A stretch of DNA of 64,000 bases from the IMG/VR virus record IMGVR_UViG_3300036828_000667, positions 49,839 to 113,838 of that record; one strand, given 5' to 3'. The stretch is from a virus. A program made the translations under genes and the position numbers. Shown piece after piece: positions 6,755 through 20,440 of the stretch. A model generated the notes under the pieces. The model saw nothing but the letters and a program-made list of their open reading frames with translations. It did no database searches and had not been told where the DNA came from. Numbering within the stretch: position 1 is the first letter of the stretch; each line of letters begins with the position of its first letter.

Positions 6755-7345
6755 ATGTCCAAGAAGTTCTCAATATCAGTGGACCATAATGCATTAAGGC
6801 AATTTCCGTTTCTGGATCGACTCCAGAAACAACAATTCCCCATTTCAACCCTCAATGAAGTTATGTACGTTCTTGAAAATAGACCTGAAGGATTCAAAAT
6901 CGAGTTGGTTTATAGTGTATTGAAAGTGTCGTTAATTAACGTCAATAGAGACACCAATGACGACTACTTGGGATTGCCGAAGATTGAAGGTCAGTTGAAA
7001 GACCTGTGTGATGTGATCAGAGAGACCACGTCATATGGAACACGTGGGGGAGTCGACCCAAGGACACAAATATATTATAGTAGGAAGTCGTCTATTCTAC
7101 AGGGTAGTAACCTTAGTGATGATGCTCTGATAGCTCCTAATTATGTTTCTAATAGAGGTTTGAGAAAACGCCATCCTCTTGATCTTGTGTCCACAGAAGA
7201 GGTCGTTAAAAGAAGGGAACTTGCTAACCGACACTGGCAAGAACAGAAAAAAGAGCAACGAAGAAAACAACAGTCCAGTATCAACTCAAAAATCCGGAAT
7301 GCTCAGGACTTTTTGACAAGAAGCAATTTTGACAAGAAGCAATAA
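6755..7345 (+). CDS. Hypothetical protein; matched by unit U4
   Basis: Track ORF 6728-7345 with in-frame ATG at 6755. Confidence 0.7.
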   Translation: MSKKFSISVDHNALRQFPFLDRLQKQQFPISTLNEVMYVLENRPEGFKIELVYSVLKVSLINVNRDTNDDYLGLPKIEGQLKDLCDVIRETTSYGTRGGVDPRTQIYYSRKSSILQGSNLSDDALIAPNYVSNRGLRKRHPLDLVSTEEVVKRRELANRHWQEQKKEQRRKQQSSINSKIRNAQDFLTRSNFDKKQ

Positions 7346-7356
7346 TAATGTTAACC
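7328..7356 (+). promoter_or_regulatory. Sigma70-type promoter driving U4
   Basis: TTTGAC-N17-TTAACC(T). Confidence 0.55.
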
Positions 7357-7362
7357 TTCTTC

Positions 7363-7426
7363 GGCGAACCGGTCCAATCCGAACCGACCCTATCCCTACC
7401 GGACCCTTGCACAGCATACCGCACAT
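7363..7426 (+). ncRNA. Pentamer-coded guide-like unit U4
   Basis: 12 periods; decodes to EGNEDYLGL vs DTNDDYLGL in the upstream gene. Confidence 0.8.
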
Positions 7427-7429
7427 CTA

Positions 7430-7460
7430 CCCCTCAGGCTGTATTACACAGCCTGAGGGG
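7430..7460 (+). terminator. Intrinsic terminator after U4
   Basis: CCCCTCAGGCTGT...ACAGCCTGAGGGG followed by TTATTATT. Confidence 0.7.
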
Positions 7461-7483
7461 TTATTATTATTAGGAGGTTAGAG

Positions 7484-8080
7484 ATGGTGACCAAAGAAAT
7501 GGTAGATGAGTTCTGTAAGCATCTGATTGATGAAGGAAAGATCGTAGAAGCTGGGTGGCTAGGCTTTAAAATCATGGTGCTTGAACCTGTTGATCTCTCG
7601 GAGAATCAAGTCGAAGATATGAAAATGGCATTCTTTGGTGGTGCTTATCATCTGTTCACGTCGATGACAAGGATGTTAGACCCTGGCAAAGAGCCGTCAG
7701 ACAATGACATAAAGCGTATAGATCAAATCAATACAGAGCTTGAAGCATTCGTAGGAGTGTTTGAAGAAGAGCTAAGGAAACGTCAACAGAAACCACCTAT
7801 ATCAGAAGATCCAGCACCAACTCTAGGTGATGCGCCTATCGAACAAGAGTATCGTAGTAAAATGCAAGCTGTTGCCATGACCTTAGATAAATTCTTCAAT
7901 GGCGAGCTTGAAGGAAACGACAGACACACCGGATTTGTCCTACTAGTATTCCCCTTTGAAGAAAGGGAAGGACGGTGTAACTTCATTTCAAATGGTGCTG
8001 ATCGAGAGGATGTAGTCACACTTTTCAAAGAAATGATCCAAAAATTTTCTGGCCAACCAGATATAGTTGGACATGCTTAA
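7484..8080 (+). CDS. Two-domain hypothetical phage protein
   Basis: AGGAGG RBS; C-terminal half paralogous to 16148-16408. Confidence 0.8.
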   Translation: MVTKEMVDEFCKHLIDEGKIVEAGWLGFKIMVLEPVDLSENQVEDMKMAFFGGAYHLFTSMTRMLDPGKEPSDNDIKRIDQINTELEAFVGVFEEELRKRQQKPPISEDPAPTLGDAPIEQEYRSKMQAVAMTLDKFFNGELEGNDRHTGFVLLVFPFEEREGRCNFISNGADREDVVTLFKEMIQKFSGQPDIVGHA

Positions 8081-8091
8081 GGAGGTTAACA

Positions 8092-8730
8092 ATGACCAAA
8101 AAGGGACCGCCTAACGTTTTTTGTCTACTATGCAATGAAGGATTTGGAAACAATGTTCATCTAGGTCGTCACGTACTGCAAATGCATGGAATTAACTTTG
8201 CCGATTATGATTGGTACAAAGTACAGAATAACATCGAACCACCTTGCTGTGCCAATTGTCAAGGTCCAGCAAAGATACACTCAGGTCGATATATAAAATT
8301 TTGCAGCACTGAGTGTAGTAGCGCCGGCCATATGATTTCTGACGAAGCTAGAGAAAGAGTTGCGAAGAGTGCGAAGCTAGTAGGTCTAGCAAATCGTACA
8401 CATGGCGAAAGTAGTAAAGATAATCTGACACCTGAATATAGAGCGTATCACAGTATGCTCTCACGATGCTTGAACTCAGCTGACGCACGCTATCCTAATT
8501 ATGGCGGGAGAGGCATCAAAATCTGTGACCGTTGGCTTGGTGAAAATGGCTTCCGCCATTTTCTTGAAGATATGGGACGTAGACCGTCTAGCGACTTATC
8601 TCTTGATCGCTATCCCAACAATAATGGAAATTATGAGCCAAACAACTGCCGTTGGGCAACACGTAGCCAGCAACAGCGTAATAAGAGTCGTGTAAAATCA
8701 CTAGACAATCCTCCCGATATACTACCATGA
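8092..8730 (+). CDS. HNH-type homing endonuclease with N-terminal Zn fingers
   Basis: C2H2 finger, YGGRGIKICDRW, SLDR..NN.GNYEP.NCRWAT..QQ.RN. Confidence 0.85.
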   Translation: MTKKGPPNVFCLLCNEGFGNNVHLGRHVLQMHGINFADYDWYKVQNNIEPPCCANCQGPAKIHSGRYIKFCSTECSSAGHMISDEARERVAKSAKLVGLANRTHGESSKDNLTPEYRAYHSMLSRCLNSADARYPNYGGRGIKICDRWLGENGFRHFLEDMGRRPSSDLSLDRYPNNNGNYEPNNCRWATRSQQQRNKSRVKSLDNPPDILP

Positions 8731-9302
8731 AATCAAAAACAATAAAACTTATCAGGAACCGTAACGTCCCCTTACCTGGGGACGTATATATTAAGAGGCT
8801 TGCTGTGTATCGTGTCGTCATGTACGATGAGACTAACGATACTACACTATTCGCTACCACTAACGATATCATTACTATCTATGGTCAAATACCACGGTTG
8901 GAGATAAGAAAAAACGACTTTTACCCTTGTCCCTACCAGCTACTAGGTCCTGCCATTCAGGTATTCGAACTAGATGAAAAATACAGTGAAAAGAGTCTAG
9001 TAAACCTACAAGACTATCGCTTACAGCATGTCAAAACATATGAGAGGATCGGCCTACCTGAATTGTTTGAAGACATTGAAGACGCAAGGACTAGAGTTTA
9101 CACAGTGCCAGACGAGCAAGGAGAACAATTTCCTGGACTGAAAGGAAAGTCGTTCCAGGTATTGGTACCTTTCATGTGCATCTCAAAAGGGACATATAAA
9201 GAACGTTATCAGACACTTGACTTGCCAGCTGATAAGGGGTATTTCAAAGCAATGAGATATACGGCATGGCCAATCTTCTACGTCCCCAGTAGATTTGAAT
9301 AA
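8727..9302 (+). CDS. Hypothetical protein
   Basis: 191 aa, overlapping stop/start. Confidence 0.7.
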   Translation: MKSKTIKLIRNRNVPLPGDVYIKRLAVYRVVMYDETNDTTLFATTNDIITIYGQIPRLEIRKNDFYPCPYQLLGPAIQVFELDEKYSEKSLVNLQDYRLQHVKTYERIGLPELFEDIEDARTRVYTVPDEQGEQFPGLKGKSFQVLVPFMCISKGTYKERYQTLDLPADKGYFKAMRYTAWPIFYVPSRFE

Positions 9303-9377
9303 TCACTTGCGTCGTACCATCAGAGATGATAGGGAGCCAATCATGACATTCCTGGTGACGTGATATGAGGTAATTAT

Positions 9378-9584
9378 ATGAGACGGTCAGATGATTTGCT
9401 GATACTTTTAATTCGAGAACACCATATACAACTATCACCAAGAACTGTGAAATCACTACTAACTAGCATAGGTCTCTTGTCCAACAACAAATATCTAAGT
9501 GCAACTCAGGTGAAAAAGTTCAGAAAACCACGGATAAGTTCTAGTTCTAAAAAAGTAGCAGTAAAAAGAGGGAAAGTAACATGA
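9378..9584 (+). CDS. Small basic hypothetical protein
   Basis: GAGG RBS, overlaps next gene. Confidence 0.5.
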   Translation: MRRSDDLLILLIREHHIQLSPRTVKSLLTSIGLLSNNKYLSATQVKKFRKPRISSSSKKVAVKRGKVT

Positions 9585-9823
9585 CGAAGCATGTAATGAA
9601 TATTCTAGATCAAACTGGCCACACTACTATCGGATGGGATGCAGGCAACGAACAGGAAATAGCTATTGCTAAAGAAGCTTTCGATAGTGCTATAAAGAAA
9701 GGATACCATGCGTTTCACGTTATTGAAGAAAAGGGTGGAGAGACTAGACGTGGAGAACGTATGACAAGATTTGATTCTGACGCAGAACGGATGATCCTGA
9801 TGCCGCAATTACAAGGAGGTTGA
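9581..9823 (+). CDS. Small protein ending in a di-glycine (..PQLQGG)
   Basis: 80 aa, C-terminal GG, coupled to the next gene. Confidence 0.75.
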   Translation: MTKHVMNILDQTGHTTIGWDAGNEQEIAIAKEAFDSAIKKGYHAFHVIEEKGGETRRGERMTRFDSDAERMILMPQLQGG

Positions 9824-9824
9824 T

Positions 9825-10508
9825 ATGATATTTGCCGCCTATCAACGATCTATAGGCATCTCCACACCTCTCCCACAGTCTGTAATTTTTACAATGGCCG
9901 ACTCTATGACAAATACCTGTAGCTCAACCTATCCAACCTATCCAGTCTGGCATAATAACATAATAGTTTTTAACGACAGTACTCGTACATATAGTGTATA
10001 TAACCCCACCACCTGTACCAACAACACGGTTGCAAGCACCTGTTTTCCTATTATACTCCAATGGCCAGATTGGCATGATCACATTTCTATGCCAAACATT
10101 ATCCAAGAAAGGATGGAGGCAGAGAACGCTAGGCTAGAACTCCAAAGACAAGCTATTGCGGAAGCTAATAGAATTGAAATGGAGAGAGCTAAGGAAAGAA
10201 GACTTAGCTCTGAGAAGGCCAAGCAGTTACTTCTAGAACACCTAACGTCTGAACAACGTGAAACAGTTGAGAAGAATGGATGGTTTGTTATCGAAGGTGG
10301 TCGATCGAAGAAACGTTACCGGATAAGATCCAGTGGTGTTACTGGTAATGTTGAGGAGATGGATGGAGAAAGAGTCATAGCCAAATATTGTTGTCACATA
10401 TCACATAGTTATCCACGCTCGGACCATCATCTCACCCAAAAGCTCATGCTAGAATGGGATGAAGAAACCTTCTTACGACTAGCTAATAAAACTGCGATAG
10501 GCTCATAG
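9825..10508 (+). CDS. Conserved hypothetical protein (coiled coil plus C-terminal YCCH/P..D domain)
   Basis: AGGAGG RBS, globular C-terminal domain. Confidence 0.75.
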   Translation: MIFAAYQRSIGISTPLPQSVIFTMADSMTNTCSSTYPTYPVWHNNIIVFNDSTRTYSVYNPTTCTNNTVASTCFPIILQWPDWHDHISMPNIIQERMEAENARLELQRQAIAEANRIEMERAKERRLSSEKAKQLLLEHLTSEQRETVEKNGWFVIEGGRSKKRYRIRSSGVTGNVEEMDGERVIAKYCCHISHSYPRSDHHLTQKLMLEWDEETFLRLANKTAIGS

Positions 10509-10835
10509 TCTCTCAAATGACAACCAGCAACCTGTACGGTTATGCTCGGCCTTGGTGGAGACAAGCAAGCGTAGCCTTTGATCTTTGACCAGTTCAAGAA
10601 ACTCCTCGCAGTGTGGTAGTCGCAAAAACTCATTGGTTGCTTCAGTAAGATCGTCTAGGGGAACGAATGAATCCTGCCAGTGCGCACCAATGAGCAATGT
10701 GATCTGGACTGTCAGTTCGTCTTTTTGGGTAGTCATGTGCTCTCGCCTGTAATAAGGTGTGTAAAAAGGAATGTAACAATGAAAAAACGAATTATCAAGA
10801 AGGCCATGCGAAAAAATATGGTGTGGTGCACCCAT
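10503..10835 (-). CDS. Hypothetical protein (likely start MTTQKDE)
   Basis: Minus-strand ORF, GAGAG before the internal ATG. Confidence 0.45.
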   Translation of the reverse strand: MGAPHHIFSHGLLDNSFFHCYIPFYTPYYRREHMTTQKDELTVQITLLIGAHWQDSFVPLDDLTEATNEFLRLPHCEEFLELVKDQRLRLLVSTKAEHNRTGCWLSFERL

Positions 10836-11063
10836 GAAGTCTATGCCCCAAACATATTACCGTGTTCAGATCTTAACTGCCCCTTCAAGGAAGACAAAGC
10901 CCGCTTAGCCAAGCCAAAAGAACTCAAGCAATGCAGGTCATTTCAAATAACCAAGCCTACTGACGAGTTCGAAAACTCGGTTAGCGTCCTCATAGCAAAG
11001 AGAAAAGCAGTACCTGAGATAATACCAGATAAAACCATTAGACGAAAGATAGCAGTCGCCTGA
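10680..11063 (+). CDS. Basic Cys-containing hypothetical protein (likely start MKKRII)
   Basis: AAGGA before internal ATG; abuts next gene. Confidence 0.55.
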   Translation: MRTNEQCDLDCQFVFLGSHVLSPVIRCVKRNVTMKKRIIKKAMRKNMVWCTHEVYAPNILPCSDLNCPFKEDKARLAKPKELKQCRSFQITKPTDEFENSVSVLIAKRKAVPEIIPDKTIRRKIAVA

Positions 11064-11064
11064 G

Positions 11065-11490
11065 ATGGTGAAGATACGTAATGTCGACCTGAGTGATCTA
11101 GTCGACCAATTCAAGGACTTCACAAAAGTCCTTGGACCCGAGGAGGTCAAAATCCTCTCTGATGCTGATCTCCTCCTACATGTTACCATACCTCATGACG
11201 AACCTGGGAAGCTAGCCTACTTAAGCAAGAGCGCTCAAATCCAATCTAAGCTCAATAACCTTCTTTCACGACTATCCTATATTTTTAATATGACCACTAT
11301 CGATAGAGATAGTTATTGGGGAAACTTGATAGAATCACAAGAAGTCGAAGGCCGAGAAAAACGATACATAGCCTTAACACGTGATCCTAAATTCAGAGAT
11401 TTAGAAGAGACCAAGTCAGCCTTGGAAGTCATACGGGATCACACTAGTAGTTTACTTTGGATACTCAAAACCATAGCCGGGAGGCTGTAA
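11065..11490 (+). CDS. Helical hypothetical protein (possibly UvsY-like)
   Basis: Size and coiled-coil pattern only. Confidence 0.6.
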   Translation: MVKIRNVDLSDLVDQFKDFTKVLGPEEVKILSDADLLLHVTIPHDEPGKLAYLSKSAQIQSKLNNLLSRLSYIFNMTTIDRDSYWGNLIESQEVEGREKRYIALTRDPKFRDLEETKSALEVIRDHTSSLLWILKTIAGRL

Positions 11491-11491
11491 A

Positions 11492-11773
11492 TTGGCAAAA
11501 GCAACAACGCGAGAACGTCAACCATTGACTAAGCGTGCGTTGCGTATTTATATAATAGTCAAACAGTACGGTCCCCCAGTAGGACTTCCTATGTCCGTAG
11601 TGGACATACAGAAATATATTCCAGAAATAACCGTTGATTGTATCAGTCCACGTATGCCAGAGCTTCGTGAAAAAAGATGGCTTCTGCGTATTGGAAAAGC
11701 ACCGCGTCCAAATCGAACTGGACGTTCGCAAAGCCAGTGGGTTTATAGAGTAATTAACGAGGATGAACTTTGA
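11492..11773 (+). CDS. Winged-helix-like DNA-binding protein
   Basis: ISPRMPELREK...R..RTGR....Y pattern. Confidence 0.6.
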   Translation: MAKATTRERQPLTKRALRIYIIVKQYGPPVGLPMSVVDIQKYIPEITVDCISPRMPELREKRWLLRIGKAPRPNRTGRSQSQWVYRVINEDEL

Positions 11774-11810
11774 GTGGCAACAGATGGACGTGTAGCTCAG
11801 CGGTAGCATC

Positions 11811-12338
11811 ATGGCAAAACACAATGAAGAAAATGATCTATGGTTCCTTAGCAAAATCGCAGATGGAACCATTTCTGTATCCGAAGACGGAGAGGTCTTC
11901 AACAACAAGACAGGTAGATATATAGGCGCTCAACAAGGAGCAGGTTACCTTAAGATTTCTATGGCAAAGAGAGTTGATGGAAAACTTGTTATTGTCCATA
12001 TGCAAATCCATAGGTTAGTATGGCTACATTTCAAAGGACCTATTCCTCAGGGACTAGAAGTCAATCACAAAGATTTAAACAAATCGAACCCACGATTGTC
12101 AAATCTAGATTTACAAACACCCAAAGGGAATGCTGAACATGCCACCTTAAATGGTGTTGACCGACGCTCAAAAACAGGAGGCCATAAAAACGCTAATGCC
12201 AAATTTACACGTGAACAAGTCGAGATGCTACGGAGACAATTCAAATCGAAAGAAACCACAGTTAAAGAAATAATGATAAACTATAGTGTTTCTAAGCCAG
12301 TTGTGTATTGGATGCTGGAAGGAAGGACCTATAAATAG
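11811..12338 (+). CDS. HNH homing endonuclease
   Basis: HRLVW..F.G.IP.GLEVNHKD.NK.N....NL. Confidence 0.9.
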   Translation: MAKHNEENDLWFLSKIADGTISVSEDGEVFNNKTGRYIGAQQGAGYLKISMAKRVDGKLVIVHMQIHRLVWLHFKGPIPQGLEVNHKDLNKSNPRLSNLDLQTPKGNAEHATLNGVDRRSKTGGHKNANAKFTREQVEMLRRQFKSKETTVKEIMINYSVSKPVVYWMLEGRTYK

Positions 12339-12363
12339 CTACTAACCTGTAGGATTTATAACA

Positions 12364-12693
12364 ATGGTAGAATTTGGAGCGTTCATTCGCAAAGAACGAG
12401 AGGCCAGAGATATTAGCTTACGAAAGATGGCCAAGAAGATTGGTGTAAGTGCAACCTATCTATCACAAGTGGAACTTGATAGGTTCCCACCACCAACTGA
12501 GGATAGGGTAAAGGCTATTGCCAAGATCATTGACTGTAATCCTGACTACCTACTGGCCAAAGCTGGACGGATCTCGACCGACATTTCCGACATCATTAAA
12601 CGTCGTCCGATCGAGCTTTCGATGCTTATTCGAGCCGCCAAGTACTTGAGTAACGATGACATTGCCCAATTGATTAATGCGGCGTCAGCGTAG
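12364..12693 (+). CDS. XRE-family HTH transcriptional regulator
   Basis: FGAFIRKERE...SLRKMA..IGVSATYLSQVE. Confidence 0.9.
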   Translation: MVEFGAFIRKEREARDISLRKMAKKIGVSATYLSQVELDRFPPPTEDRVKAIAKIIDCNPDYLLAKAGRISTDISDIIKRRPIELSMLIRAAKYLSNDDIAQLINAASA

Positions 12694-12787
12694 GAGCCTC
12701 ACTGGTAAGTCTTTTAGGCCTGGAGGCCCTACCACCTGGCCTGTCCATAATTCGCGTCAGTGGGCTTCCAACAAAGAGGAGAGGGTA

Positions 12788-12973
12788 ATGCGTTGCGATC
12801 GGTGTCAGGGAACAGGCTGGGATCGGGCAGGAGTACACCCTGTACTTGGGCCGCTCTTCGATTGCAACCATCCGTGTACTGAATGCGGCGGGTCAGGCAT
12901 CGCCCACTGTTGCGACGGCATCTGCGAACAGCCTTCAATTGACAAGTCTATAGATGACAAGCTAACATCTTGA
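12788..12973 (+). CDS. Small DnaJ-type zinc-finger protein
   Basis: CDRCQGTG...CTECGGSG; GGAGAGG RBS. Confidence 0.65.
   Translation: MRCDRCQGTGWDRAGVHPVLGPLFDCNHPCTECGGSGIAHCCDGICEQPSIDKSIDDKLTS
12938..12968 (+). promoter_or_regulatory. Sigma70-type promoter driving U5
   Basis: TTGACA-N18-TAACAT. Confidence 0.55.
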
Positions 12974-13046
12974 CGCCTACCGTACCACTCCGACGCCAAC
13001 CACACCGAGCCGGTCCATACCTTTCCAAACCAAACCACACTTTTTT
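12974..13046 (+). ncRNA. Pentamer-coded guide-like unit U5
   Basis: 13 periods ending ACCAAACCACAC-TTTTTT. Confidence 0.75.
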
Positions 13047-13224
13047 ATTACTACTAGATATTCAGGAAAGGCGAACATGAGAGGTTAGGTTAAACTAACT
13101 TCGTTCTTCCTTTAGCTCAGCTACAAACTTCTTAATCAGAGTTGTTAAGGTTGGAGTGTGCTTAGCTGGAAAGTTACCAGCAAGTACCTTGGCAATAGCA
13201 TACCGAATTACCTTAAACTCTTCC

Positions 13225-13476
13225 TCAGTTAGCTCCAACGTTATCACTAGGCACCTCGCCTTTCTTTATCACGCTAACCTTACTATCATCGATCTTCAGA
13301 GTAAACCTCTTATTATCCACAACTTCTCGCCATCTATTTTCCTCAATATAAGCACAGGCTTTAAGGTAGTCCGTCAAACAAAAAACATGAGTATGTATCT
13401 GTGACCAACACGGATGCTCACGGCATAAGTGTTCAATCTTGGCGGCTAACTCCCTGAGTGGTGATTGCATACCCAA
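13225..13476 (-). CDS. Hypothetical protein
   Basis: GGAGG near start, plausible composition. Confidence 0.5.
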   Translation of the reverse strand: MGMQSPLRELAAKIEHLCREHPCWSQIHTHVFCLTDYLKACAYIEENRWREVVDNKRFTLKIDDSKVSVIKKGEVPSDNVGAN

Positions 13477-13571: not shown

Positions 13572-13641
13572 GTCGAACCGCTGCCTTGCTTGCCAAACCG
13601 GGCCAAGCCGGCGCGGACCAAACCTCCGCACACCGCACAAT
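13572..13641 (+). ncRNA. Pentamer-coded guide-like unit U6
   Basis: 13 periods decoding to EALLKGKGGKSTA, the peptide encoded at 13756-13794. Confidence 0.9.
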
Positions 13642-13695: not shown

Positions 13696-14337
13696 ATGCT
13701 AATTTCAGTCACGATCTCCGGAATCCGACCTTTAATCCTCGACGCGTTTTCCGAGGAAGCGTTGCTTAAGGGGAAGGGAGGAAAGAGTACAGCCCAGCCC
13801 AAGGAACTGAGTCCCTTGGATCAAGCCAAGCGTAGGTTATACTATAATGGAGATGGTACCGACGTTCCTATATTCCCAGCAGACAACCTACTCAGCTGTA
13901 TCATCGCTGCCGGGCGGTTTATCAAGGTCGGGAAAAGGCAACTAACTACTCGCGACAGTACGACAGTAACTTCATTCCTACAGATATCAGAACTATATCT
14001 TCCCATTAGGTCGATAGATGGATGGCGAGTCGACTCCAGGAGCATCGTCAACCCGTCTACAAAAGGTCGTCACATATGCTACCGTCCCATCTTTGACGAC
14101 TGGGAGTTAGATTTCACGCTCGACATCGATACGAATGAAGCGAGCGACAGCTTGGTTAGACAGTTGATTGATAGAGCAGGTAGGTTTATCGGGATCGGGG
14201 TCATGCGGCCCGAAAGGAAGCGGCAGTATGGGCAATACGTGGTGCGCTGCTGGGATTGCCGTTCAGAACATGAAGAGCTTGACAACATACCAAAACTTGC
14301 TAAGAAAACTAAGACTAGATCGAAAGAACTAGTCTAA
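13696..14337 (+). CDS. Stand-alone RAMP / Cas7-like RNA-binding protein, candidate effector of the pentamer guides
   Basis: N-terminal strand ISGIRPLIL, PIFPADNLLSCI (cf. RAMP P.IPGSSLKG), C-terminal Gly-rich loop GIGVMRPERKRQYGQYVV; AGGAG RBS. Confidence 0.75.
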   Translation: MLISVTISGIRPLILDAFSEEALLKGKGGKSTAQPKELSPLDQAKRRLYYNGDGTDVPIFPADNLLSCIIAAGRFIKVGKRQLTTRDSTTVTSFLQISELYLPIRSIDGWRVDSRSIVNPSTKGRHICYRPIFDDWELDFTLDIDTNEASDSLVRQLIDRAGRFIGIGVMRPERKRQYGQYVVRCWDCRSEHEELDNIPKLAKKTKTRSKELV

Positions 14338-14467
14338 CACTGGTTCATCGCGGACCGTACCGGAGCGTGCCATGCCCGTCCCCGCCGAGCCCGACCAAAC
14401 CAGACCCAACCTACGCGGACCCAGCCTATCCTTAGCGTAGCACACCGCACAGTTAAGGCCAAAACCA

Positions 14468-14511
14468 GAAGGAAGGAGATACGGAAATGAAACCACGCAT
14501 CTCCTTCCTTC
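14468..14511 (+). terminator. Stem-loop 3' of unit A
   Basis: GAAGGAAGGAGAT...ATCTCCTTCCTTC. Confidence 0.6.
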
Positions 14512-15110
14512 AAACCCAAGTTTCGAACAATCCATGCCACTGCAAACCGCGCCAGCCCTATGCCTACCACTGTGAACCGCTCCACACCATTCTTTTATCA
14601 ATTATCAAGTCAACACTCCGAACCAGACCCCGCCTTACCCAACAGCACCCCACCAAACCGGACCGACCCACTCCAATGTGCACCTCAGCAGACCGAAGCA
14701 CACCATACTTTATCAATTGCCTTCCCGACCCGAGCTATGCCCAACCGACCCGACCCACTCCGGGCCGCACCCCTCCCTCCCATCCCGCAGCACACCATAC
14801 TTTATTTCATTACGACTCTCCGGCCCTACGCCAACCACACCAGCCCGGAGCGTGCCATACCGCACCATACTTTTATCATTTCAATGCGCACCGTCCCTCA
14901 CCGTGCCATCTCTCACCCGACCATACCATCCCTCCCCACCTCGGCCCGGACCCCGCCGATGCAAACCACACCATACTTTATCAATTTTCAGAACCATCCC
15001 GACCGTACCAGTGCGCGCCATTCCAATGCAGCCCTCGCCTCCGCATGTCAGGCCGCCCCGACCCATGCCGCACCAAACCACACTTTCTTTATCAACTAAG
15101 GAGAACCAGC

Positions 15111-15311
15111 ATGACCACACATCGTCCCACATTCGAAGACTGGCAGCTAGACTTCACTTTGGATTATAATGAAACTGAAATAGATGAAGGTACTATACGT
15201 AAGCTAATCGAAGTAGTAGCTGGAACGCACATAGGACTTGGCTCTATGCGCCCAGAACGACATGGACCCTATGGACAGTTTAAGATCAAGGAATGGACTC
15301 CACATTCTTAG
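15111..15311 (+). CDS. 66-aa truncated paralog of the RAMP protein C-terminus
   Basis: AAGGAG RBS; RPTFEDWQLDFTLD...IGLGSMRPERHGPYGQF aligns with RPIFDDWELDFTLD...IGIGVMRPERKRQYGQY. Confidence 0.8.
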   Translation: MTTHRPTFEDWQLDFTLDYNETEIDEGTIRKLIEVVAGTHIGLGSMRPERHGPYGQFKIKEWTPHS

Positions 15312-15598
15312 TCTTATCCATCTCTGCTTACCGTAGCCCTCATCACCGCACCCGTGAGCACCGACCCATGCCTGAGCCTACCTCAGCATACCCAACCGCA
15401 GCAACCCGGTGCGAACCAAACCACACTATTTTTTATACAATTTCAACTTACCGTCCCGGCCCGAGCCAGTCCATCGTGCGCCGACCCGTCGCTCCCCATA
15501 CCGCACTATACTTTATTCATTACCAACCATGCCATACCATGCCATTCCGGAACGCTGCCCTCCGGTCCACACCACACTTTCTTTAGGAGTTTAACCAG

Positions 15599-15844
15599 AT
15601 GGCAAAGGTAACTGGTATTGACGGTAAAAGCTTTATCAAAGGTCAACGTTTTGGTAAGCTAGTTGCGGTACGTCCACTAGGCTGGAGTAGTGACCGCAGC
15701 TGGTGTTGGCTATGTAAGTGTGATTGCGGCAATGAGACTATCTTAAGTGCTAACAGACTTCGAAGTGGTGAAGTTCAAGCTTGTGGATACGCTGTAACTA
15801 TAAAATCAGACACAAATGAGGAACACTGTAACGGACAGATATAA
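15599..15844 (+). CDS. N-terminal fragment of an HNH/AP2-type endonuclease family protein
   Basis: GQRFGKLV...W.CKCDCG......LRSG...CG; no nuclease domain. Confidence 0.65.
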   Translation: MAKVTGIDGKSFIKGQRFGKLVAVRPLGWSSDRSWCWLCKCDCGNETILSANRLRSGEVQACGYAVTIKSDTNEEHCNGQI

Positions 15845-16158
15845 TGACAAAGCCTACCATTACTGTCAAACAGAATCCCAATGAAGGTGACGTAGCTGAC
15901 TTCGTAGTTTGTCACCGTGTTTCTGTGCTACCTATCCCGTACGTGTCAGCTGAGATCCAACATTGCTCCAGATGTAACGAAAGGATATGGGTTGCAAACA
16001 CCTCTCCATCTAAGCCTCCTAAACTATGCTGGGAATGTTCAATTCCTCTAATTGCCAAAGACGACGATACAAGAATAATGATTACCGAACGGCAACGGGC
16101 AGAGGTTCAGAAGTATATGCAACTAGTCCAGAAACTCCAGGAGAAAAATGAAAAGTGA
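15844..16158 (+). CDS. Zinc-binding hypothetical protein
   Basis: CSRC...CWEC. Confidence 0.65.
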   Translation: MTKPTITVKQNPNEGDVADFVVCHRVSVLPIPYVSAEIQHCSRCNERIWVANTSPSKPPKLCWECSIPLIAKDDDTRIMITERQRAEVQKYMQLVQKLQEKNEK

Positions 16159-16408
16159 ACGTCATAAGATGCTCGAAATAGCCATGAGGTATCTCGACAG
16201 ACTATTCAACGGTAATGATAAAACAATAGAAAAAAGCACTGGAATTGTATTACTTACGTTCTCCTTTACTGACGAAGATGGTAATCATTGCGGTGATGAC
16301 AATGGGACTATCATCACCAATGGCATAGAAAGGGAACACATTGTAGGCATTATGGAAGCAATGCTAGAAAGACTGAAGGCAGACGATATACTTTTCAGAC
16401 GACATTAA
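16148..16408 (+). CDS. Hypothetical protein, paralog of the 7484-8080 C-terminal half
   Basis: LDRLFNG...TGIVLLTF.F...ITNG. Confidence 0.7.
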   Translation: MKSERHKMLEIAMRYLDRLFNGNDKTIEKSTGIVLLTFSFTDEDGNHCGDDNGTIITNGIEREHIVGIMEAMLERLKADDILFRRH

Positions 16409-16414
16409 AGACCT

Positions 16415-16969
16415 TTAAGTAGCATCATAGGCAAACTCACCAGCCAAACGTTTGGAAGCTTCCTCATACGCCTGAACCGCCTCTTCTACTGTGTTAAAGG
16501 TACCGATCTGAACGTCTTTATACATATGTTTTATTCTAGCCTCCCATTTTCCTGTGCTTTTCTTGTACCTTACTCCCTTAAAACCACTTGTATTATTTTT
16601 GAACATAGGACGATTGTAGCAATTCTGCTGTGTCGTCGCTGGACGAAGATTAGTCCATATATTGTTACCTGGATTTAGATCCTTATGATCTATCTCATAA
16701 TTAGGCCATTCTCCTGTCACATATAACCATATAATACGATGTACTTGATACATTCTGCCATTAACTTTTACCTGTATACGTCCTCCTTTCTTAATAGAAC
16801 CCGCCGTACTTCCAATAACAATCCTCCAGTTTAACGCCTCCTTCCATGTAAGTATACCAGTTTCAGGATCATAGTTAAAAATCTGCCTAACAAACTCAGC
16901 TGTTAGACTATTGTTATAGATACGAGTCCCCATTTTTACGCTCCTGTAGTGGCAGCCTTTACTGCCCAA
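16415..16969 (-). CDS. HNH endonuclease with C-terminal AP2 domain (likely start 16933)
   Basis: YDPETG, HRIIW, IDHKD....NN...NLR, NNTSGFKGV..W.A.I. Confidence 0.9.
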   Translation of the reverse strand: MGSKGCHYRSVKMGTRIYNNSLTAEFVRQIFNYDPETGILTWKEALNWRIVIGSTAGSIKKGGRIQVKVNGRMYQVHRIIWLYVTGEWPNYEIDHKDLNPGNNIWTNLRPATTQQNCYNRPMFKNNTSGFKGVRYKKSTGKWEARIKHMYKDVQIGTFNTVEEAVQAYEEASKRLAGEFAYDAT

Positions 16970-17139
16970 TGAACAGCCTCTTCATAAGCGGTTTGTGCTA
17001 AGGACGCTAACCTAGCATCTTTCGATTTCAGAGTTTCACATAGGTCGATCAACTCAGCAGACTTTTGCTTGATCTCATCAACTATAGTATCTGCACTTGG
17101 ATTAAATGCAGTCCGAACTCGTTGTTCACCGATTGTCAT
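16936..17139 (-). CDS. Acb2/Tad1-like helical-hairpin protein (possible nucleotide-signal sponge)
   Basis: R.ASLAQT.YEEA..WAVKA motif; AGGAG RBS. Confidence 0.55.
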   Translation of the reverse strand: MTIGEQRVRTAFNPSADTIVDEIKQKSAELIDLCETLKSKDARLASLAQTAYEEAVHWAVKAATTGA

Positions 17140-17150
17140 AGTACTCTCCT

Positions 17151-17181
17151 CTTGACAAGTTCACCTTGTTACACCTACGAT
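17151..17181 (+). promoter_or_regulatory. Sigma70-type promoter driving unit K
   Basis: CTTGACA-N18-TACGAT. Confidence 0.65.
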
Positions 17182-17186
17182 GATTA

Positions 17187-17246
17187 CTCGAACCGACCCC
17201 GTCCAGGCCACTCCTCCGCCCACCGACGCAAACCGCACAATTTTAT
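17187..17246 (+). ncRNA. Pentamer-coded guide-like unit K
   Basis: 10 periods ending ACCGCACAATTTT. Confidence 0.75.
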
Positions 17247-17361
17247 ATCCTACCATTTTCCACTACTTAGTTGGCTAGCAATAAGTCAAGCGTATAATTC
17301 TAAGACCCTACAAGACATACAAATGGGAACGTCCTAAAACCCGCAACAGAAAGTCCCGATC

Positions 17362-17529
17362 ATGCTAAGCATGGGCGACAAGGTAATAAAGGACACTGGC
17401 GACTATACTTTTTCGGGTGTCGTCATCGCAGTATTCCTAAAACGCAATGGTACTGCTGTAAGGTATGTAGTAGAGAACGAAGAAGGTATCTGCCACATAT
17501 TCAACGACCGCCAAATTAGAAAGGTTTAA
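17362..17529 (+). CDS. 55-aa SH3-like phage protein, not in the ORF track
   Basis: MLSMGDKVIKDTGDYTFSGVVIAVFLKRNGTAVRYVVENEEGICHIFNDRQIRKV, translated by hand. Confidence 0.65.
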   Translation: MLSMGDKVIKDTGDYTFSGVVIAVFLKRNGTAVRYVVENEEGICHIFNDRQIRKV

Positions 17530-17534
17530 TTTAT

Positions 17535-17777
17535 GTGAAGAAGTGTGACTATGCACATCAAGAAAGGTACAGAAGAGTGACAAAGGCAGAACTGACTTGT
17601 AGCGTATGCGGCAAACGTTATGAAACTCTAGGAGACTATGGGGACGACGTTGACTGCCAAATGATCTGTTTTCGCTGCTTCGAACAAGCTGATGCCATCT
17701 CTGCTCAGCAGAATCGCTGGCCTGATGGTCGAGACTTTCGTTACTTACGAGATATGAAAAAGCATCATCAAAAGTAG
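17535..17777 (+). CDS. Zinc-binding hypothetical protein
   Basis: CSVC...CFRC. Confidence 0.55.
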   Translation: MKKCDYAHQERYRRVTKAELTCSVCGKRYETLGDYGDDVDCQMICFRCFEQADAISAQQNRWPDGRDFRYLRDMKKHHQK

Positions 17778-17812
17778 ACCACACAATTACCATAATCAGA
17801 TTATACAAACTA

Positions 17813-17915
17813 ACCATACCGAGCCGAGCCGTTGCCGCACCATACTTTATCAATTTGATTCCCACCACACCTCCCCGGACCTATCCAGCCCCCTGCAAAC
17901 CGCACCATACTTACT
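17813..17915 (+). ncRNA. Two short pentamer units: L (17813-17855, with a 1-nt phase slip) and M (17859-17915)
   Basis: Same period and ACCATACTT tail as the main array. Confidence 0.7.
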
Positions 17916-17928
17916 TGTAATATAAATA

Positions 17929-18237
17929 TCAGTGAGTGTAGCTAGACTGACCATGCCCATCAGCATCCAATTCTTCACTAATTTCGTTGATCTCAATAGA
18001 CAGCATTTTACCAAACTCACTAAAAGCTTCCGGCCTATCCTCAGTCGAGGTAGCTCCAACAATTGCTCTAGCAACTACTTCACAAAGCACAGAACTAAGT
18101 TCCTCATAGTCAATTTGATCTCCTGGACTACCGTCCGGGTTTCCATTACGGCGATAAAAATCCGTAATGACTTCATTGAAAAAACAGCTAAGACATTCGC
18201 GTTCCCTACCGTCATCCGCTTTGATCTTATGTGCCAT
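17929..18237 (-). CDS. Acidic hypothetical protein
   Basis: AGGAGG RBS. Confidence 0.7.
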   Translation of the reverse strand: MAHKIKADDGRERECLSCFFNEVITDFYRRNGNPDGSPGDQIDYEELSSVLCEVVARAIVGATSTEDRPEAFSEFGKMLSIEINEISEELDADGHGQSSYTH

Positions 18238-18321
18238 ATTTAAACCTCCTACCTTTCACAGAACCGCTATACTTTATCCATAATCCACACTTAGTGATTT
18301 AGAAGTCAGCCAAGAGTTCTC

Positions 18322-18457
18322 TGCGTACCGACTCTTTCCGGACCGGACTGTACCACACTATACCATACCTCACCTACCCATACCTCGCCTAACCACGCCT
18401 TTGCGACCCGGAGCGTGCCTCGCCTACCCAATGCGACCCTGACCACAGCACACAATT
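18322..18457 (+). ncRNA. Pentamer-coded guide-like unit N (26 periods)
   Basis: Decoded reverse complement reads VVQSLYDTPSNVYDMYDIIVTPPKST, matching the terminase C-terminus. Confidence 0.9.
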
Positions 18458-18477
18458 ATAGGACTAAAAGACATGAG

Positions 18478-18510
18478 GTGGTGACTTGTATGGTTTGGGC
18501 AAGTCACCAC
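18478..18510. terminator. Stem-loop between unit N and the terminase stop
   Basis: GTGGTGACTTG...CAAGTCACCAC. Confidence 0.65.
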
Positions 18511-18514
18511 TTCC

Positions 18515-20440
18515 CTACGCAATTCTTTGAAACCTATCACCAAGAGACTGCAACGTATCCCTTATAGAGCCGTAAGCTTCATATACGTTGCTGGGCGTGT
18601 CGTAAAGCGACTGTACCGCATTATAAGTCGCAGCGCATAGGCTGTCCGCCATGTCGCAATGACTACCTTCTAATTGCGCCTTCACGACCTTATTATTTTC
18701 GAACCAGATGGATTCCAGTTCCTTCTTCAAGTCACGCATCATTCCAGTTTTGAGGCAATCAGTCGCGACAATGTTACTAAGAACATCATATGGTGTACGT
18801 GTCTTTTCCACGCTCAACACCTCCACAGTCTCAGCATACCCTATCGATGTAAGCTTCTGTATCAATTGTTCACTCTGATATTGGTCAGCTGTGAAAGTCT
18901 TGAACCCTAGACCATAGTAATCTCTCAAGTCTATAATGAACTCCTTGACTGCTTCCAAATTGATACGGTTTGGACTTGTGATCCTTAGAACCAAATCAGC
19001 GACGTATATCACCTTGCCTGTCCGGCTAAGCTCCTTGTGGACTACGGATAGCCCAGCTGAACTCACAGCAGCACCGTCCCAAGCTCCGTATCTAGTAGCC
19101 GCTGGATATCTTTTCCATCTGTATCCTTCAGGCGTAGCTATAAACAAGTCTCTCGGTAGCTGCTCTCGTAGCGGGGCTGGGATAGGCTGATTGGCATTAC
19201 CAAGAGGTGCCGAAACATAAAGAATCGGGCAGAGGTTTGGATCTTCGACTTTGCTGAGGTCATCGAAAGGCACCTCCTGACCCATGCTCGCTTGACCAGC
19301 TAGATTCATCAGGGATTGCTCTGTCCTTCTTTCAAAGTCACGTTGATATCGCTTAGGGACTTTCACTAGTGTACAAGACGGTGGAAGATCAAACTTGTCA
19401 TTCTCAGCTAGTACACTTTCTCTAGGTTCAAGTACCCTTGATGGGTGTCTTTGAGTACCACGCATACACCAGAAGTGACCATCATGTTTAAGCGCATCAG
19501 GATACTTGGTATCCCATATGGAGTACTGACTGACTTTACCAGCTGGATCATTTCGAAGCTGGGCGATGTGAGTAGCCATAACCCCCTTCTCATGAGCAAT
19601 AGAAGACAATAGAGTCATTAGCGTATAGCGGACTCCCAAGAACCTGGACCTTATGCGTTCAAAGATGTTGTCATATAGTGTAAATGCCTTGTCTACGAGA
19701 CCCTTGCTACCAATTCGAAATTCTGCCTCGTCGAGCATACCTCCAAACACATCTTCACCCAGAACATGTCGATCCTGTGATCCAGCGTAAATCTTTACGT
19801 TATTAGGAAACTCAAATCCTTCTCCATTGAATACCCATGGTGTAAGTTTCTCTAATTCAGGATCGTTCTCAAATTCAAGGAAGTCCCTTAAATGATTCAC
19901 CTTCCTGTAGTCCTTACAGGCTGAGAGCAATATCCCAACACGTTCAATCAGAGTGCTCTGGGCCTTCTCCTTAGTAACAGTAAACAGCTGTAGGATCATC
20001 GGCTTTGATGGGCCGGTACCCATACTCAGCTGAGGATTCCTGAAAGAGTTTATCCTGTAAACATTATACAATTGTGCTATTAAACCAGCAGTGCTCTTAC
20101 CAGTGCCAATAGCACCAGTTACTCCCCATCTACAGATAATAGATTTAGGAGCAAATATCTCAATCAAATCCTTCTTCCAGTTAGGAAACAAGATTAGTGC
20201 ATCATCCCCTATATAATCAGGAGTTAGAAACTCTTCTATAGTAGGTATTGGTCTCTTGAAACACATAGTAGTCAAGTCAGGGACTTCTTTAAAATGACCT
20301 AGCATTGTCAACGCTAGGCCAAGACGTTTCTTCTCAGGTGGAATCTCCCTAAGTCGAGGGTTTCTGGCGTCCATATCCAACATAAACTGAGCAAACTCGC
20401 TAGACTCAGCAATTCTGTCAAGCTCCACAGGATCTATCAT
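18515..20440 (-). CDS. terL: Terminase large subunit
   Basis: Walker A GAIGTGKS, Walker B GMLDEAE, C-terminal RNase H-like acidic residues (WD, ADQYQS, D.AD). Confidence 0.85.
   Translation of the reverse strand: MIDPVELDRIAESSEFAQFMLDMDARNPRLREIPPEKKRLGLALTMLGHFKEVPDLTTMCFKRPIPTIEEFLTPDYIGDDALILFPNWKKDLIEIFAPKSIICRWGVTGAIGTGKSTAGLIAQLYNVYRINSFRNPQLSMGTGPSKPMILQLFTVTKEKAQSTLIERVGILLSACKDYRKVNHLRDFLEFENDPELEKLTPWVFNGEGFEFPNNVKIYAGSQDRHVLGEDVFGGMLDEAEFRIGSKGLVDKAFTLYDNIFERIRSRFLGVRYTLMTLLSSIAHEKGVMATHIAQLRNDPAGKVSQYSIWDTKYPDALKHDGHFWCMRGTQRHPSRVLEPRESVLAENDKFDLPPSCTLVKVPKRYQRDFERRTEQSLMNLAGQASMGQEVPFDDLSKVEDPNLCPILYVSAPLGNANQPIPAPLREQLPRDLFIATPEGYRWKRYPAATRYGAWDGAAVSSAGLSVVHKELSRTGKVIYVADLVLRITSPNRINLEAVKEFIIDLRDYYGLGFKTFTADQYQSEQLIQKLTSIGYAETVEVLSVEKTRTPYDVLSNIVATDCLKTGMMRDLKKELESIWFENNKVVKAQLEGSHCDMADSLCAATYNAVQSLYDTPSNVYEAYGSIRDTLQSLGDRFQRIA

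What the first reader, a model, noticed from the sequence alone, without database searches (positions are those of the whole stretch)
6950..18616. Guide plus recoded neighbouring allele: a possible RNA-guided homing or allele-drive strategy
In all four matches the unit lies within about 0.1-0.4 kb of the matched site, the peptide is conserved and the resident DNA is silently diverged. Nine of 11 Leu/Ser/Arg codons are switched between codon families, including two TCN/AGY swaps that need multiple substitutions. In unit A, 15 of 16 synonymously variable conserved codons differ. The resident terminase tail uses GCG/TCG/ACG/CCC codons, whereas the decoded guide mostly uses A/T-ending codons at those positions, suggesting the resident gene is the recoded party. 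Inference: each guide attacks the ancestral allele in co-infecting relatives and hitchhikes with its immune allele, as free-standing homing endonucleases do. Alternatives are old self-derived guides followed by drift, or weak autoregulation.
Basis: inference. Interest (0 to 1): 0.9.

Follow-up and report, generated by a model that had tools for sequence, protein, structure and literature searches.

The report
VIPR guide RNAs beside mismatched own genes
A soil phage carries about 29 guide-RNA genes of the VIPR system, a CRISPR relative described in 2026; many sit beside one of the phage's own genes that they almost but not quite match, which looks like a weapon against sibling phages kept next to its own resistant allele.

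Summary
The 'units' are guide-RNA genes (vrRNAs) of a VIPR system, a phage-borne CRISPR relative described in three 2026 preprints. ORF 13696-14337 is its Vipr protein.

Reading the three variable bases of each pentamer gives the codons of a site 106-386 nt away. These sites are vipr codons 21-33 and 165-183, the terminase tail (antisense) and, weakly, ORF 6728-7345. Genome-wide, 9 of 29 units have their single best match within 51-290 nt.

Two things are not in the papers I read:
- Guides sit beside near-cognate but mismatched genes of the same phage.
- This clade's repeats are GG+NNN, and the third base follows the codon's purine/pyrimidine class (45/51, against 5/19 in ordinary GGY loci).

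Some evidence supports guides aimed at rivals' alleles. One guide outside the window matches a soil homologue 26/26 and the resident 24/26. Resident footprints use atypical codons.

No DNA of close relatives was reachable for the four window pairs, and no nuclease is linked, so 'homing' is unsupported. A linked weapon plus resistant allele is the best reading (about 0.45). This scan noted the same layout in at least seven other genomes.

The parts
13696..14337 (+). vipr gene (213 aa), the RAMP/Cas7-like effector of the VIPR system
   Evidence: phmmer hit to PDB 36pp_D 'SUSP1 Vipr protein' at E=4.7e-5. A profile of 25 homologues hits it at E=1.7e-12 over residues 17-184. phrog_4652 matches. The AlphaFold model has pLDDT 81.9 and its best PDB folds are Csm3/Cas7 subunits at E about 2e-6.
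13588..13637 (-). solo vrRNA repeat tract just upstream of vipr. The strand given is the G-rich strand; which strand is transcribed is unresolved.
   Evidence: 14 pentamers. The decoded triplets give the 13-residue peptide of vipr codons 21-33.
13756..13794 (+). near-cognate resident site of unit 13588 (vipr codons 21-33)
   Evidence: Unique genome-wide top site, 119 nt from the unit. 22/26 position-1-2 bases match and the peptide is 13/13. Two Leu codons and one Ser codon are in the other family.
14350..14439 (-). unit A, the first vrRNA downstream of vipr
   Evidence: 22 pentamers. The decode carries the lineage-specific G-loop peptide of this Vipr.
14188..14244 (+). near-cognate resident site of unit A (vipr codons 165-183, the G-loop)
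   Evidence: Unique top site, 106 nt away. 34/38 position-1-2 bases match and the peptide is 17/19. Only 1 of 14 synonymous position-1-2-matched codons has the same third base. Codon typicality is the lowest and GC3 the highest of the gene here.
14532..15576 (-). tandem array of nine further vrRNA units, interrupted by ORF 15108-15311
   Evidence: None has a significant match anywhere in the phage genome. Metagenome contigs show variants with units missing.
15108..15311 (+). 67-aa paralogue of the Vipr C-terminus (thumb and G-loop region) inside the array
   Evidence: phrog_4652 at E=1.7e-9, profile positions 138-190. It is the second-best genomic match of unit A.
7359..7423 (-). solo vrRNA unit between ORF 6728-7345 and a terminator
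   Evidence: 13 pentamers. A TTGACA-type promoter-like site lies upstream on the + strand. A terminator lies at 7429-7461 on the + strand.
6950..6988 (+). weak near-cognate site of unit 7359 in ORF 6728-7345 (codons 77-82 form the core)
   Evidence: 11/12 bases match over 6 codons, and two following Leu codons are family-switched. The match is not significant on its own.
18300..18447 (-). solo vrRNA unit (18352-18447) plus a short degenerate second unit, just downstream of the terminase stop codon
   Evidence: The guide-implied peptide read in the terminase frame is given.
18561..18620 (-). near-cognate resident site of unit 18338: large terminase residues about 608-626
   Evidence: Unique top site, 132 nt from the unit; 23/26 bases match in the core and 29/40 over the full length. 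The match lies on the template strand, with the skip positions on the wobble bases. 12 residues are conserved; one Leu and one Ser are family-switched.
18515..20440 (-). large terminase gene (641 aa)
   Evidence: tblastn matches annotated phage terminases. Relatives are 80-87% identical over the C-terminal part queried, and the tail segment is conserved in them.
12975..13049 (-). solo vrRNA unit without a self match
   Evidence: On the + strand, TTGACA, an 18-nt spacer and TAACAT end 7 nt before the first repeat.
17188..17237 (-). solo vrRNA unit without a self match
   Evidence: On the + strand, TTGACA, an 18-nt spacer and TACGAT end 7 nt before the first repeat.
17800..17914 (-). two short tandem vrRNA units without a self match
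   Evidence: A metagenome variant joins 17759 to 17856, skipping part of this stretch.
6645..6709 (+). solo vrRNA unit just outside the finding's range, with a near-cognate site at 6429-6449 in ORF 6321-6599
   Evidence: Top genome-wide local score 11, 196 nt away; 13/14 bases match.

Best explanation
This is a VIPR system (Viral Interference Programmable Repeat) of the NNNGG repeat type.

Shown here:
- A Vipr RAMP protein gene.
- An array of about ten guide genes next to it.
- About 18 solo guide genes scattered over 52 kb of the phage genome.
- At least nine guides whose best match in the whole genome is a coding segment 51-290 nt away.
- Matches that are codon-aligned but incomplete: 81-100% of codon positions 1-2 in the core, 69-90% over the whole guide, and only 54-79% if all three bases count.

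From the published work on type II systems: Vipr subunits polymerise on the repeats and hide the constant bases. They present the variable bases to double-stranded DNA and silence transcription where the guide fits.

Inferred: each solo guide is aimed at the version of the neighbouring gene carried by sibling phages in the same host. The resident copy escapes because it differs at read positions. The differences are Leu/Ser/Arg codon-family switches, conservative replacements such as Met/Ile to Leu, and nearly every wobble base. Guide and resistant allele sit side by side so that recombination during co-infection cannot separate them. This is a poison-antidote layout, not a nuclease-driven homing event.

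Also inferred: in this clade the base after GG is not a fixed pyrimidine but part of the specificity, so the guide reads whole codons.
For: System identity:
- PDB SUSP1 Vipr hit and RAMP fold.
- 29 pentamer units.
- The published code explains why guide triplets equal codons.

Linkage:
- The unique best genome-wide site lies within 51-290 nt for 9 of 29 units. By chance this would be under 1% per unit.

The guide looks like a real coding allele, not a drifted copy:
- 7 of 16 codons mismatched at positions 1-2 are still synonymous.
- Purine/pyrimidine class agrees 45/51 times in split codon boxes but only 17/34 in four-fold boxes.
- In GGY-type loci elsewhere the split-box agreement is 5/19 (Fisher P=1.4e-6).

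Silent divergence beyond neutral:
- The guides reproduce lineage-specific peptides. The 13 residues of the variable Vipr N-terminus and the G-loop variant occur in no homologue, and homologues are at most 66% identical.
- Yet the third base is identical in only 22/78 codons against 31.9 expected (P=0.01).

The resident looks like the changed party:
- Footprint codons have mean log2 RSCU -0.19 against +0.095 for the genome (P<1e-4). Decoded guides have +0.03.
- The within-gene window test gives combined P=0.014.

A non-self allele fits better:
- The guide at genome 16676 matches soil contig L011 26/26 in the core and 31/36 overall. The resident scores 24/26 and 28/36.
- The closest relative's protein (93% identical) carries the Met...Ile variant that the guide spells. 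The resident carries Leu...Val.

Siblings exist:
- Two soil metagenome runs hold this phage together with many contigs 80-99% alike, including array indel variants.

Precedent in print:
- Guides against rivals' vipr at early and late codons, and self-match scores lower than non-self.
Against: - For the four pairs inside the window no sibling DNA was obtained, so no guide-type allele has been seen for them.
- Unit A's best positions-1-2 match in all reachable data is the resident vipr itself (34/38). G001 scores 29/32 and G002 27/30 over shorter stretches.
- Core identities of 81-100% exceed the 80% cut-off that the VIPR papers use to call targets. Under the published one-base-skip rule several guides would hit their own genome.
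- The L011 allele matches the guide's third bases no better than the resident does (3/13 each). Third-base reading therefore has no positive example.
- The Leu/Ser/Arg switch excess is not significant genome-wide, and the within-gene GC3 test is not significant (P=0.21).
- The 7359 pair is weak.
- The transcribed strand is unresolved.
- No vap gene or nuclease was tied to the system.
Confidence: 0.45

Rival explanations
1. Self-regulation. The solo guides act on the resident neighbouring genes themselves. Two guides would give negative feedback on vipr. Others would act as roadblocks at gene ends, including the end of the terminase gene. Partial complementarity would tune the strength, as in partially matching CRISPR autoregulatory guides.
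For: - The resident sites are the best matches in the genome, and for unit A the best in all reachable data.
- Core identity at positions 1-2 is 81-100%, above the published 80% target threshold.
- The unit at genome 47324 matches its neighbour 20/20.
- The guide lies next to its site, as cis-encoded regulators often do.
Against: - A regulator of the resident gene should match it. Instead third bases are depleted in identity (22/78 against 31.9 expected).
- Mismatched codons stay synonymous (7/16), which has no rationale if the guide only needs to bind the resident DNA.
- Many sites lie at the 3' end of the gene (terminase residues 608-626 of 641, vipr 165-183 of 213). A roadblock there does little to that gene.
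- The guide at genome 16676 fits foreign alleles better than the resident one.
Confidence: 0.2
2. Trace of origin only. New guides arise from, or are inserted by recombination next to, homologous DNA of relatives. Adjacency then records where a guide was born. The resident mismatches are ordinary divergence between lineages, with no selected linkage and no recoding.
For: - The Leu/Ser/Arg switch rate is close to what random synonymous codons give (7/11 against 5.2 expected, P=0.22).
- In four-fold boxes the third base is random (17/34), as after saturation.
- The soil homologue matches because the segment is conserved across the family.
Against: - The guides reproduce lineage-specific peptides in variable regions. 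That is incompatible with the long divergence needed to saturate silent sites.
- Third-base identity is below the saturated expectation (P=0.01).
- Resident footprints have atypical codons.
- No known mutational process turns a coding stretch into a pentamer-spaced copy.
Confidence: 0.15
3. Chance resemblance or an assembly or synthetic artefact.
For: The 7359 pair alone does not exceed chance.
Against: - Nine unique top hits lie within 300 nt of their unit in a 114-kb genome.
- The same stretch is held by two soil metagenome runs of two studies.
- Homologous Vipr loci exist in public viral contigs.
Confidence: 0.01

Closest known systems
VIPR systems, type II exemplars of Escherichia phage SUSP1 and a Pseudomonas fulva prophage (bioRxiv 10.64898/2026.04.26.720920; structures 10.64898/2026.04.26.720927)
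   Same: - A single small RAMP protein homologous to SUSP1 Vipr.
- Guide genes made of 9-22 pentamers with a constant GG.
- One guide upstream and an array downstream of vipr.
- Targets are coding DNA on either strand, in codon register.
   Different: - The base after GG is a pyrimidine in only 54-60% of repeats here, against 97% in 33 other loci.
- The G-loop residues that hold G1, G2 and Y3 in SUSP1 are partly replaced: D177 to V, W178 to M, C173 to I.
- The constant element lies at the other end of the repeat tract.
- The array's G-rich strand is antiparallel to vipr, unlike the 24 GGY loci checked.
- No vap gene was recognised.
- Those papers report no self hits at 80% or more.
Solo (orphan) vrRNAs of SUSP1-family phages and F5 satellites (bioRxiv 10.64898/2026.10.15.759431)
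   Same: - Stand-alone guide genes away from an array.
- Guides against vipr at early codons and near the gene end.
- Self-match lower than non-self match, read by the authors as avoidance of autoimmunity.
   Different: - There the solo guides replace a deleted vipr-vap locus or sit in satellites. Their targets are other elements or host repeats.
- Here a VIPR-positive phage scatters about 18 solo guides, and at least nine lie beside the resident homologue of their own target. I did not find that layout in the three papers.
Free-standing homing endonuclease genes of T-even phages with marker exclusion (from my own knowledge of segF, segG and mobE; not checked here)
   Same: A selfish function encoded next to the site it attacks in relatives, while the resident site is diverged and resistant. 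Tight linkage favours co-inheritance.
   Different: Homing needs a DNA break and repair from the resident genome. Nothing here shows cleavage. Specificity is RNA-programmed and the expected effect is silencing.
Poison-antidote gene drives that pair a guide with a recoded rescue allele, such as synthetic Cleave-and-Rescue designs (from my own knowledge; not checked here)
   Same: A guide against the common allele, plus a tightly linked allele of the same gene that encodes the same protein but is silently altered at the guide's footprint.
   Different: Those are engineered, use Cas9 cleavage and act in diploid animals. This is natural, acts in phages and probably works by repression. The drive behaviour is inferred, not shown.
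CRISPR-Cas autoregulation by partially matching guides, such as long-form tracrRNA and Cas-regulating RNAs (from my own knowledge; not checked here)
   Same: Guides with partial complementarity to the system's own gene, encoded next to it.
   Different: Those pair with promoter DNA and need no peptide-level relation. Here the mismatches preserve the encoded amino acids, and most targeted genes are not part of the system.

Membership tests
VIPR system | Vipr protein: a small RAMP with RRM core, thumb and glycine-rich loop, homologous to characterised Vipr | tested here: met
   A profile of 25 homologues hits PDB 36pp_D (SUSP1 Vipr) at E=1.7e-12 over 168 residues. R138 and R179 equivalents are kept. 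The model has pLDDT 81.9 and its best folds are Csm3/Cas7.
VIPR system | Guide genes made of tandem pentamers with a constant GG and hypervariable bases, nine or more repeats | tested here: met
   29 units of 8-22 pentamers; positions 4 and 5 are G in 93% and 77%.
VIPR system | Conserved pyrimidine after GG (GGY motif) | tested here: not met
   Pyrimidine in 54-60% here, against 97% of 2381 pentamers in 33 other loci. This fits the 'NNNGG' alternative repeat named in the methods of the first paper.
VIPR system | Targets follow the gapped code: variable dinucleotides pair, every third target base is skipped and falls on the wobble position | tested here: inconclusive
   Positions 1-2 match near-cognate coding sites in codon register on both strands. 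The third base is also informative (45/51 class agreement). No confirmed natural target was found.
VIPR system | Invariable structured 3' tail after the repeat tract | tested here: inconclusive
   The constant element (GTGYGG plus one repeat) is 5' of the tract on the G-rich strand and 3' on the C-rich strand. Several solo units have a hairpin next to it.
VIPR system | Guides expressed as RNAs of about 100 nt that co-purify with Vipr | not testable with these tools
   No RNA run holds the stretch. Promoter-like signals exist on both strands.
VIPR system | Accessory vap gene next to vipr | tested here: inconclusive
   The neighbours are a 67-aa Vipr fragment, an HTH protein (12364-12693) and small ORFs without family. 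None could be equated with a published vap.
VIPR system | No CRISPR array | tested here: met
   No Rfam family, CRISPR repeats included, in the window. Only the pentamer families appear as repeats in 5000-21000. A full cas gene census was not made.
Homing-endonuclease-type mobile element | A nuclease that cuts the cognate site in relatives | tested here: not met
   Vipr has no nuclease domain: Pfam gave nothing above threshold. The HNH genes at 11811-12338 and 16415-16969 are ordinary HNH_3 endonucleases not tied to any unit.
Homing-endonuclease-type mobile element | The resident site next to the element is diverged and resistant | tested here: inconclusive
   Divergence is shown. Resistance was not tested.
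Homing-endonuclease-type mobile element | Presence/absence polymorphism with co-conversion tracts in relatives | not testable with these tools
   The DNA of close relatives was not retrievable.

The most novel reading that the evidence does not exclude
In this NNNGG-type VIPR clade all three variable bases of each repeat are read, so a guide recognises contiguous codons and can tell apart alleles that differ only at silent sites. The phage has silently recoded at least nine of its own genes under the footprints of linked guides. This would be a natural RNA-guided poison-antidote drive, with each guide-plus-rescue-allele cassette spreading through sibling phages by recombination during co-infection.
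Probability: 0.3. Interest if true: 0.85.

Novelty: new variant of a known kind. Interest (0 to 1): 0.6.

Why it matters
VIPR was published only in 2026. Its self versus non-self logic, its codes outside type II and the way guides spread are still open questions.

This genome offers a compact test bed for them:
- 29 guides, of which at least nine have a known near-cognate site a few hundred bases away.
- Two guides aimed at the system's own effector gene.
- A repeat type whose third base carries codon information.

If the linked layout is a weapon kept with its antidote, it would be a natural counterpart of engineered guide-plus-recoded-rescue drives. It would also explain how phages can aim guides at genes they share with their closest competitors.

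If the third base is read, it adds a second programmable code (three paired, two flipped) to the published one (two paired, three flipped, one target base skipped).

Tried and rejected
Early ideas dropped once the VIPR papers were found:
- G-quadruplex or TRAP-like protein-binding arrays.
- Translation in five-base steps.
- Anticodon arrays.

Searches that gave nothing:
- Rfam and tRNA scans.
- Nucleotide search of GenBank phages with 12900-15700.
- Pfam on Vipr: only sub-threshold noise.

Attempts to reach sibling DNA that failed:
- Two metagenome scans with the 266-aa target protein returned only 50-62% relatives.
- IMG/VR scans with that family and with the terminase family returned only a 147-kb relative that has no vipr match and is too diverged.
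- Its terminase tail and its 266-aa homologue do not fit the guides: no guide scored 12 or more on its terminase locus, and the homologue scores 19/26.

Other negative or inconclusive results:
- The closest Vipr homologues among 5.8 billion proteins are at most 66% identical.
- G001, a complete 47.6-kb phage with a Vipr of the same clade, has an array but no cis pairs.
- No RNA holder is listed for the stretch.
- The lay of contigs showed co-occurring variants, but it listed no differences inside the four footprints among the 40 rows shown.
- The Leu/Ser/Arg switch enrichment genome-wide (P=0.22) and the within-gene GC3 test (P=0.21) were not significant.
- A G-U/G-T wobble reading of the third base was considered, but my hand counts were mixed and it was not pursued.

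Full report
WHAT IS THERE

The region holds many short tracts in which GG recurs every five bases on one strand. There are 19 such tracts in the window and 29 in the whole 113,838-bp phage genome, of which the window is bases 49,839-113,838. No other dinucleotide gives more than five such runs. On the G-rich strand each tract starts with a constant GTGYGG plus one further repeat and continues with 8-22 pentamers. Ten units lie in tandem behind ORF 13696-14337 and one lies just before it. The rest are scattered singly over about 52 kb.

WHAT IT IS

ORF 13696-14337 matches the solved 'SUSP1 Vipr protein' (PDB 36pp). The single sequence gives E=4.7e-5, and a profile of 25 homologues gives E=1.7e-12 over 168 residues. 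Its model (pLDDT 81.9) resembles Csm3/Cas7 backbone subunits.

Three 2026 preprints describe VIPR.
- Vipr polymerises on guide RNAs made of GGY-NN pentamers.
- It hides GGY and pairs each NN with double-stranded DNA while skipping every third target base.
- The skipped base usually falls on the codon wobble position.
- The result is transcriptional silencing of rival mobile elements.

The system as such is therefore known.

CHECK OF THE OBSERVATION

I scanned the whole genome, both strands and all registers, with a score that uses only codon positions 1-2. The single best site of unit 13588 is vipr codons 21-33, 119 nt away. That of unit A (14350) is vipr codons 165-183, 106 nt away. That of unit 18338 is the end of the large terminase gene, 132 nt away, on the template strand with the skip positions on the wobble bases.

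The fourth pair, unit 7359 against 6950-6988, is weak and would not stand alone.

Outside the finding, six more units have their unique best site 51-290 nt away and one more has a weaker near site. In total that is 9 of 29 clear cis pairs plus two weaker ones, counting the 7359 pair. The array units have no match in the genome.

GUIDE AND RESIDENT GENE BEHAVE AS TWO ALLELES OF ONE PEPTIDE

The cores of the ten sense-strand pairs were chosen without reference to amino acids.
- 7 of 16 codons that mismatch at positions 1-2 are still synonymous.
- The third base keeps the purine/pyrimidine class in 45 of 51 split codon boxes (32 expected, P=1.4e-5) but only 17 of 34 four-fold boxes.
- Exact third-base identity is below what random synonymous codons would give: 22/78 against 31.9 expected, P=0.01.

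The guides also reproduce peptides specific to this lineage. These include a 13-residue stretch of the variable Vipr N-terminus and this phage's own G-loop variant. No homologue above 66% identity exists among 5.8 billion proteins. Near-identical peptides with fully scrambled silent sites are not what neutral divergence gives.

Resident footprints use atypical, G/C-ending codons. Mean log2 RSCU is -0.19 against +0.095 for the genome (P<1e-4), and the within-gene test gives combined P=0.014. The decoded guides use typical codons.

The family-switch excess itself is not significant genome-wide (P=0.22).

DO THE GUIDES FIT OTHER PHAGES' ALLELES?

Only one pair could be tested with DNA. The guide at genome 16676 matches a soil metagenome homologue (L011) at 26/26 core bases and 31/36 overall. 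The resident allele scores 24/26 and 28/36. At the protein level the closest relative (93% identical) carries the Met...Ile variant that the guide spells, while the resident and three further relatives carry Leu...Val.

Unit A fits the vipr G-loop of two other clade members at about 90% (29/32 and 27/30). The resident is matched as well (34/38).

The terminase segment is conserved in relatives that are 80-87% identical over the part queried, but their DNA could not be fetched. Two soil metagenome runs hold this phage together with many contigs 80-99% alike, including versions of the array with units missing. Siblings therefore co-occur.

A DIFFERENT REPEAT TYPE

In 2381 pentamers from 33 other viral loci the base after GG is a pyrimidine in 97% of cases. 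Here it is 54-60%, and it is 71% and 53% in two loci that also have a relaxed third base; one of them, G001, has a Vipr 62% identical to this one.

In cis pairs found in four ordinary GGY loci, the third base agrees in class with the resident codon only 5/19 times, against 45/51 here (Fisher P=1.4e-6). Three G-loop residues that shape the G1, G2 and Y3 contacts in SUSP1 are replaced here.

The first paper's methods mention 'NNNGG' repeats as an alternative, but I found no targeting rule given for them. My inference, unproven, is that this clade reads all three bases.
- It would explain why cores that match at 81-100% of positions 1-2, above the published 80% target threshold, are tolerated in the phage's own genome. 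With the third base counted, identity falls to 54-79%.
- Against it, the one foreign allele in hand matches third bases no better than the resident does (3/13 each).

UNRESOLVED: WHICH STRAND IS THE GUIDE?

In all 24 GGY loci checked, vipr runs in the same direction as the G-rich strand of its array. Here and in G001 it runs opposite.

Evidence for the C-rich strand:
- Thirteen of about 16 solo units have TTGAC(A/T) 30-37 nt upstream on the C-rich strand.
- Five of these have a TAnnnT hexamer 17-18 nt further on, and the predicted start coincides with the first repeat.
- Several have a hairpin with a U-run after the constant end on that strand.

Evidence for the G-rich strand:
- Array units carry an extended -10-like TGnTAAAGT on that strand.
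- Homology to a GG-binding protein favours it.

Only RNA data can settle this.

VERDICT

The object is a new member of the published VIPR family, of the little-described NNNGG type.

It rests on statistics within one genome and on a single cross-genome example. The word 'homing' is not supported: no nuclease is tied to the units, and the published mode of action is silencing. Self-regulation (0.2) and a mere trace of origin (0.15) remain open.

The linked layout is not in the three papers as far as I read them. Earlier notes of this scan report it in at least seven other genomes. I also saw cis pairs in viral contigs L047, L028 and L016.

Noticed in passing
window 11811-12338 (+) and 16415-16969 (-): Two free-standing HNH_3 homing endonuclease genes (the second also has an AP2 domain) flank the VIPR locus. 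A metagenome contig joins 11770 to 12788, a variant lacking the first gene, which suggests a presence/absence polymorphism.
   Followed up: partly
window 14661-15567 and 14873-15144: Contigs of two soil metagenome runs carry versions of the guide array with several units missing or replaced (joints with 4 and 35 other letters). Guide content therefore varies among co-occurring strains.
   Followed up: partly
window 15108-15311 (+): A 67-aa ORF with its own ribosome-binding site duplicates the thumb and G-loop part of Vipr inside the array. It is the second-best genomic match of unit A (30/44). Its function is unknown; it could be a decoy or a remnant.
   Followed up: partly
solo units throughout the genome, e.g. 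window 12939-12968, 17152-17181, 7316-7344, 7429-7461: Sigma-70-like promoters and hairpin terminators bracket the solo units on the C-rich strand. Also, vipr is antiparallel to the G-rich strand of its array, unlike the 24 GGY-type loci checked. The transcribed strand is therefore uncertain.
   Followed up: partly
genome 47324-47398 and 47632-47661 (window -2514..-2440 and -2206..-2177; locus L005): This solo guide matches its neighbour gene (DUF7303) at 20/20 position-1-2 bases over 10 codons, while only 1 of 9 synonymous codons shares the third base. Under the published skip rule this would be a self-target.
   Followed up: partly
window 13696-14337, vipr codons 65-79, 105-119 and 129-143: Further patches of high GC3 and atypical codons lie in vipr outside the two mapped footprints. 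They could be escape marks from guides carried by other phages.
   Followed up: no
window 74-148 and genome 49766-49789: The decoded guide has TAG where the near-cognate site has AAG. The site lies opposite a + strand ORF (genome 49434-49805), so its reading frame and target gene are unclear.
   Followed up: no
loci L047 2334-2423, L028 13918-14027, L016 6743-6807: Other viral contigs with VIPR guides also show a near-cognate site 124-233 nt from a guide (27/32, 18/20 and 12/12 position-1-2 bases). The linked layout is therefore not confined to this phage.
   Followed up: partly
proteins P0116 and P0120 (relatives of the terminase 18515-20440): Two terminase relatives, 80-82% identical over the C-terminal part queried, are 779-846 aa long and carry an intein/homing-endonuclease domain (PF14890) that this phage lacks.
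   Followed up: no
window 12364-12693 (+): A Cro/CI-type HTH protein gene lies about 1 kb upstream of vipr, between an HNH gene and a solo guide. It is a possible regulator or accessory gene of the locus.
   Followed up: no
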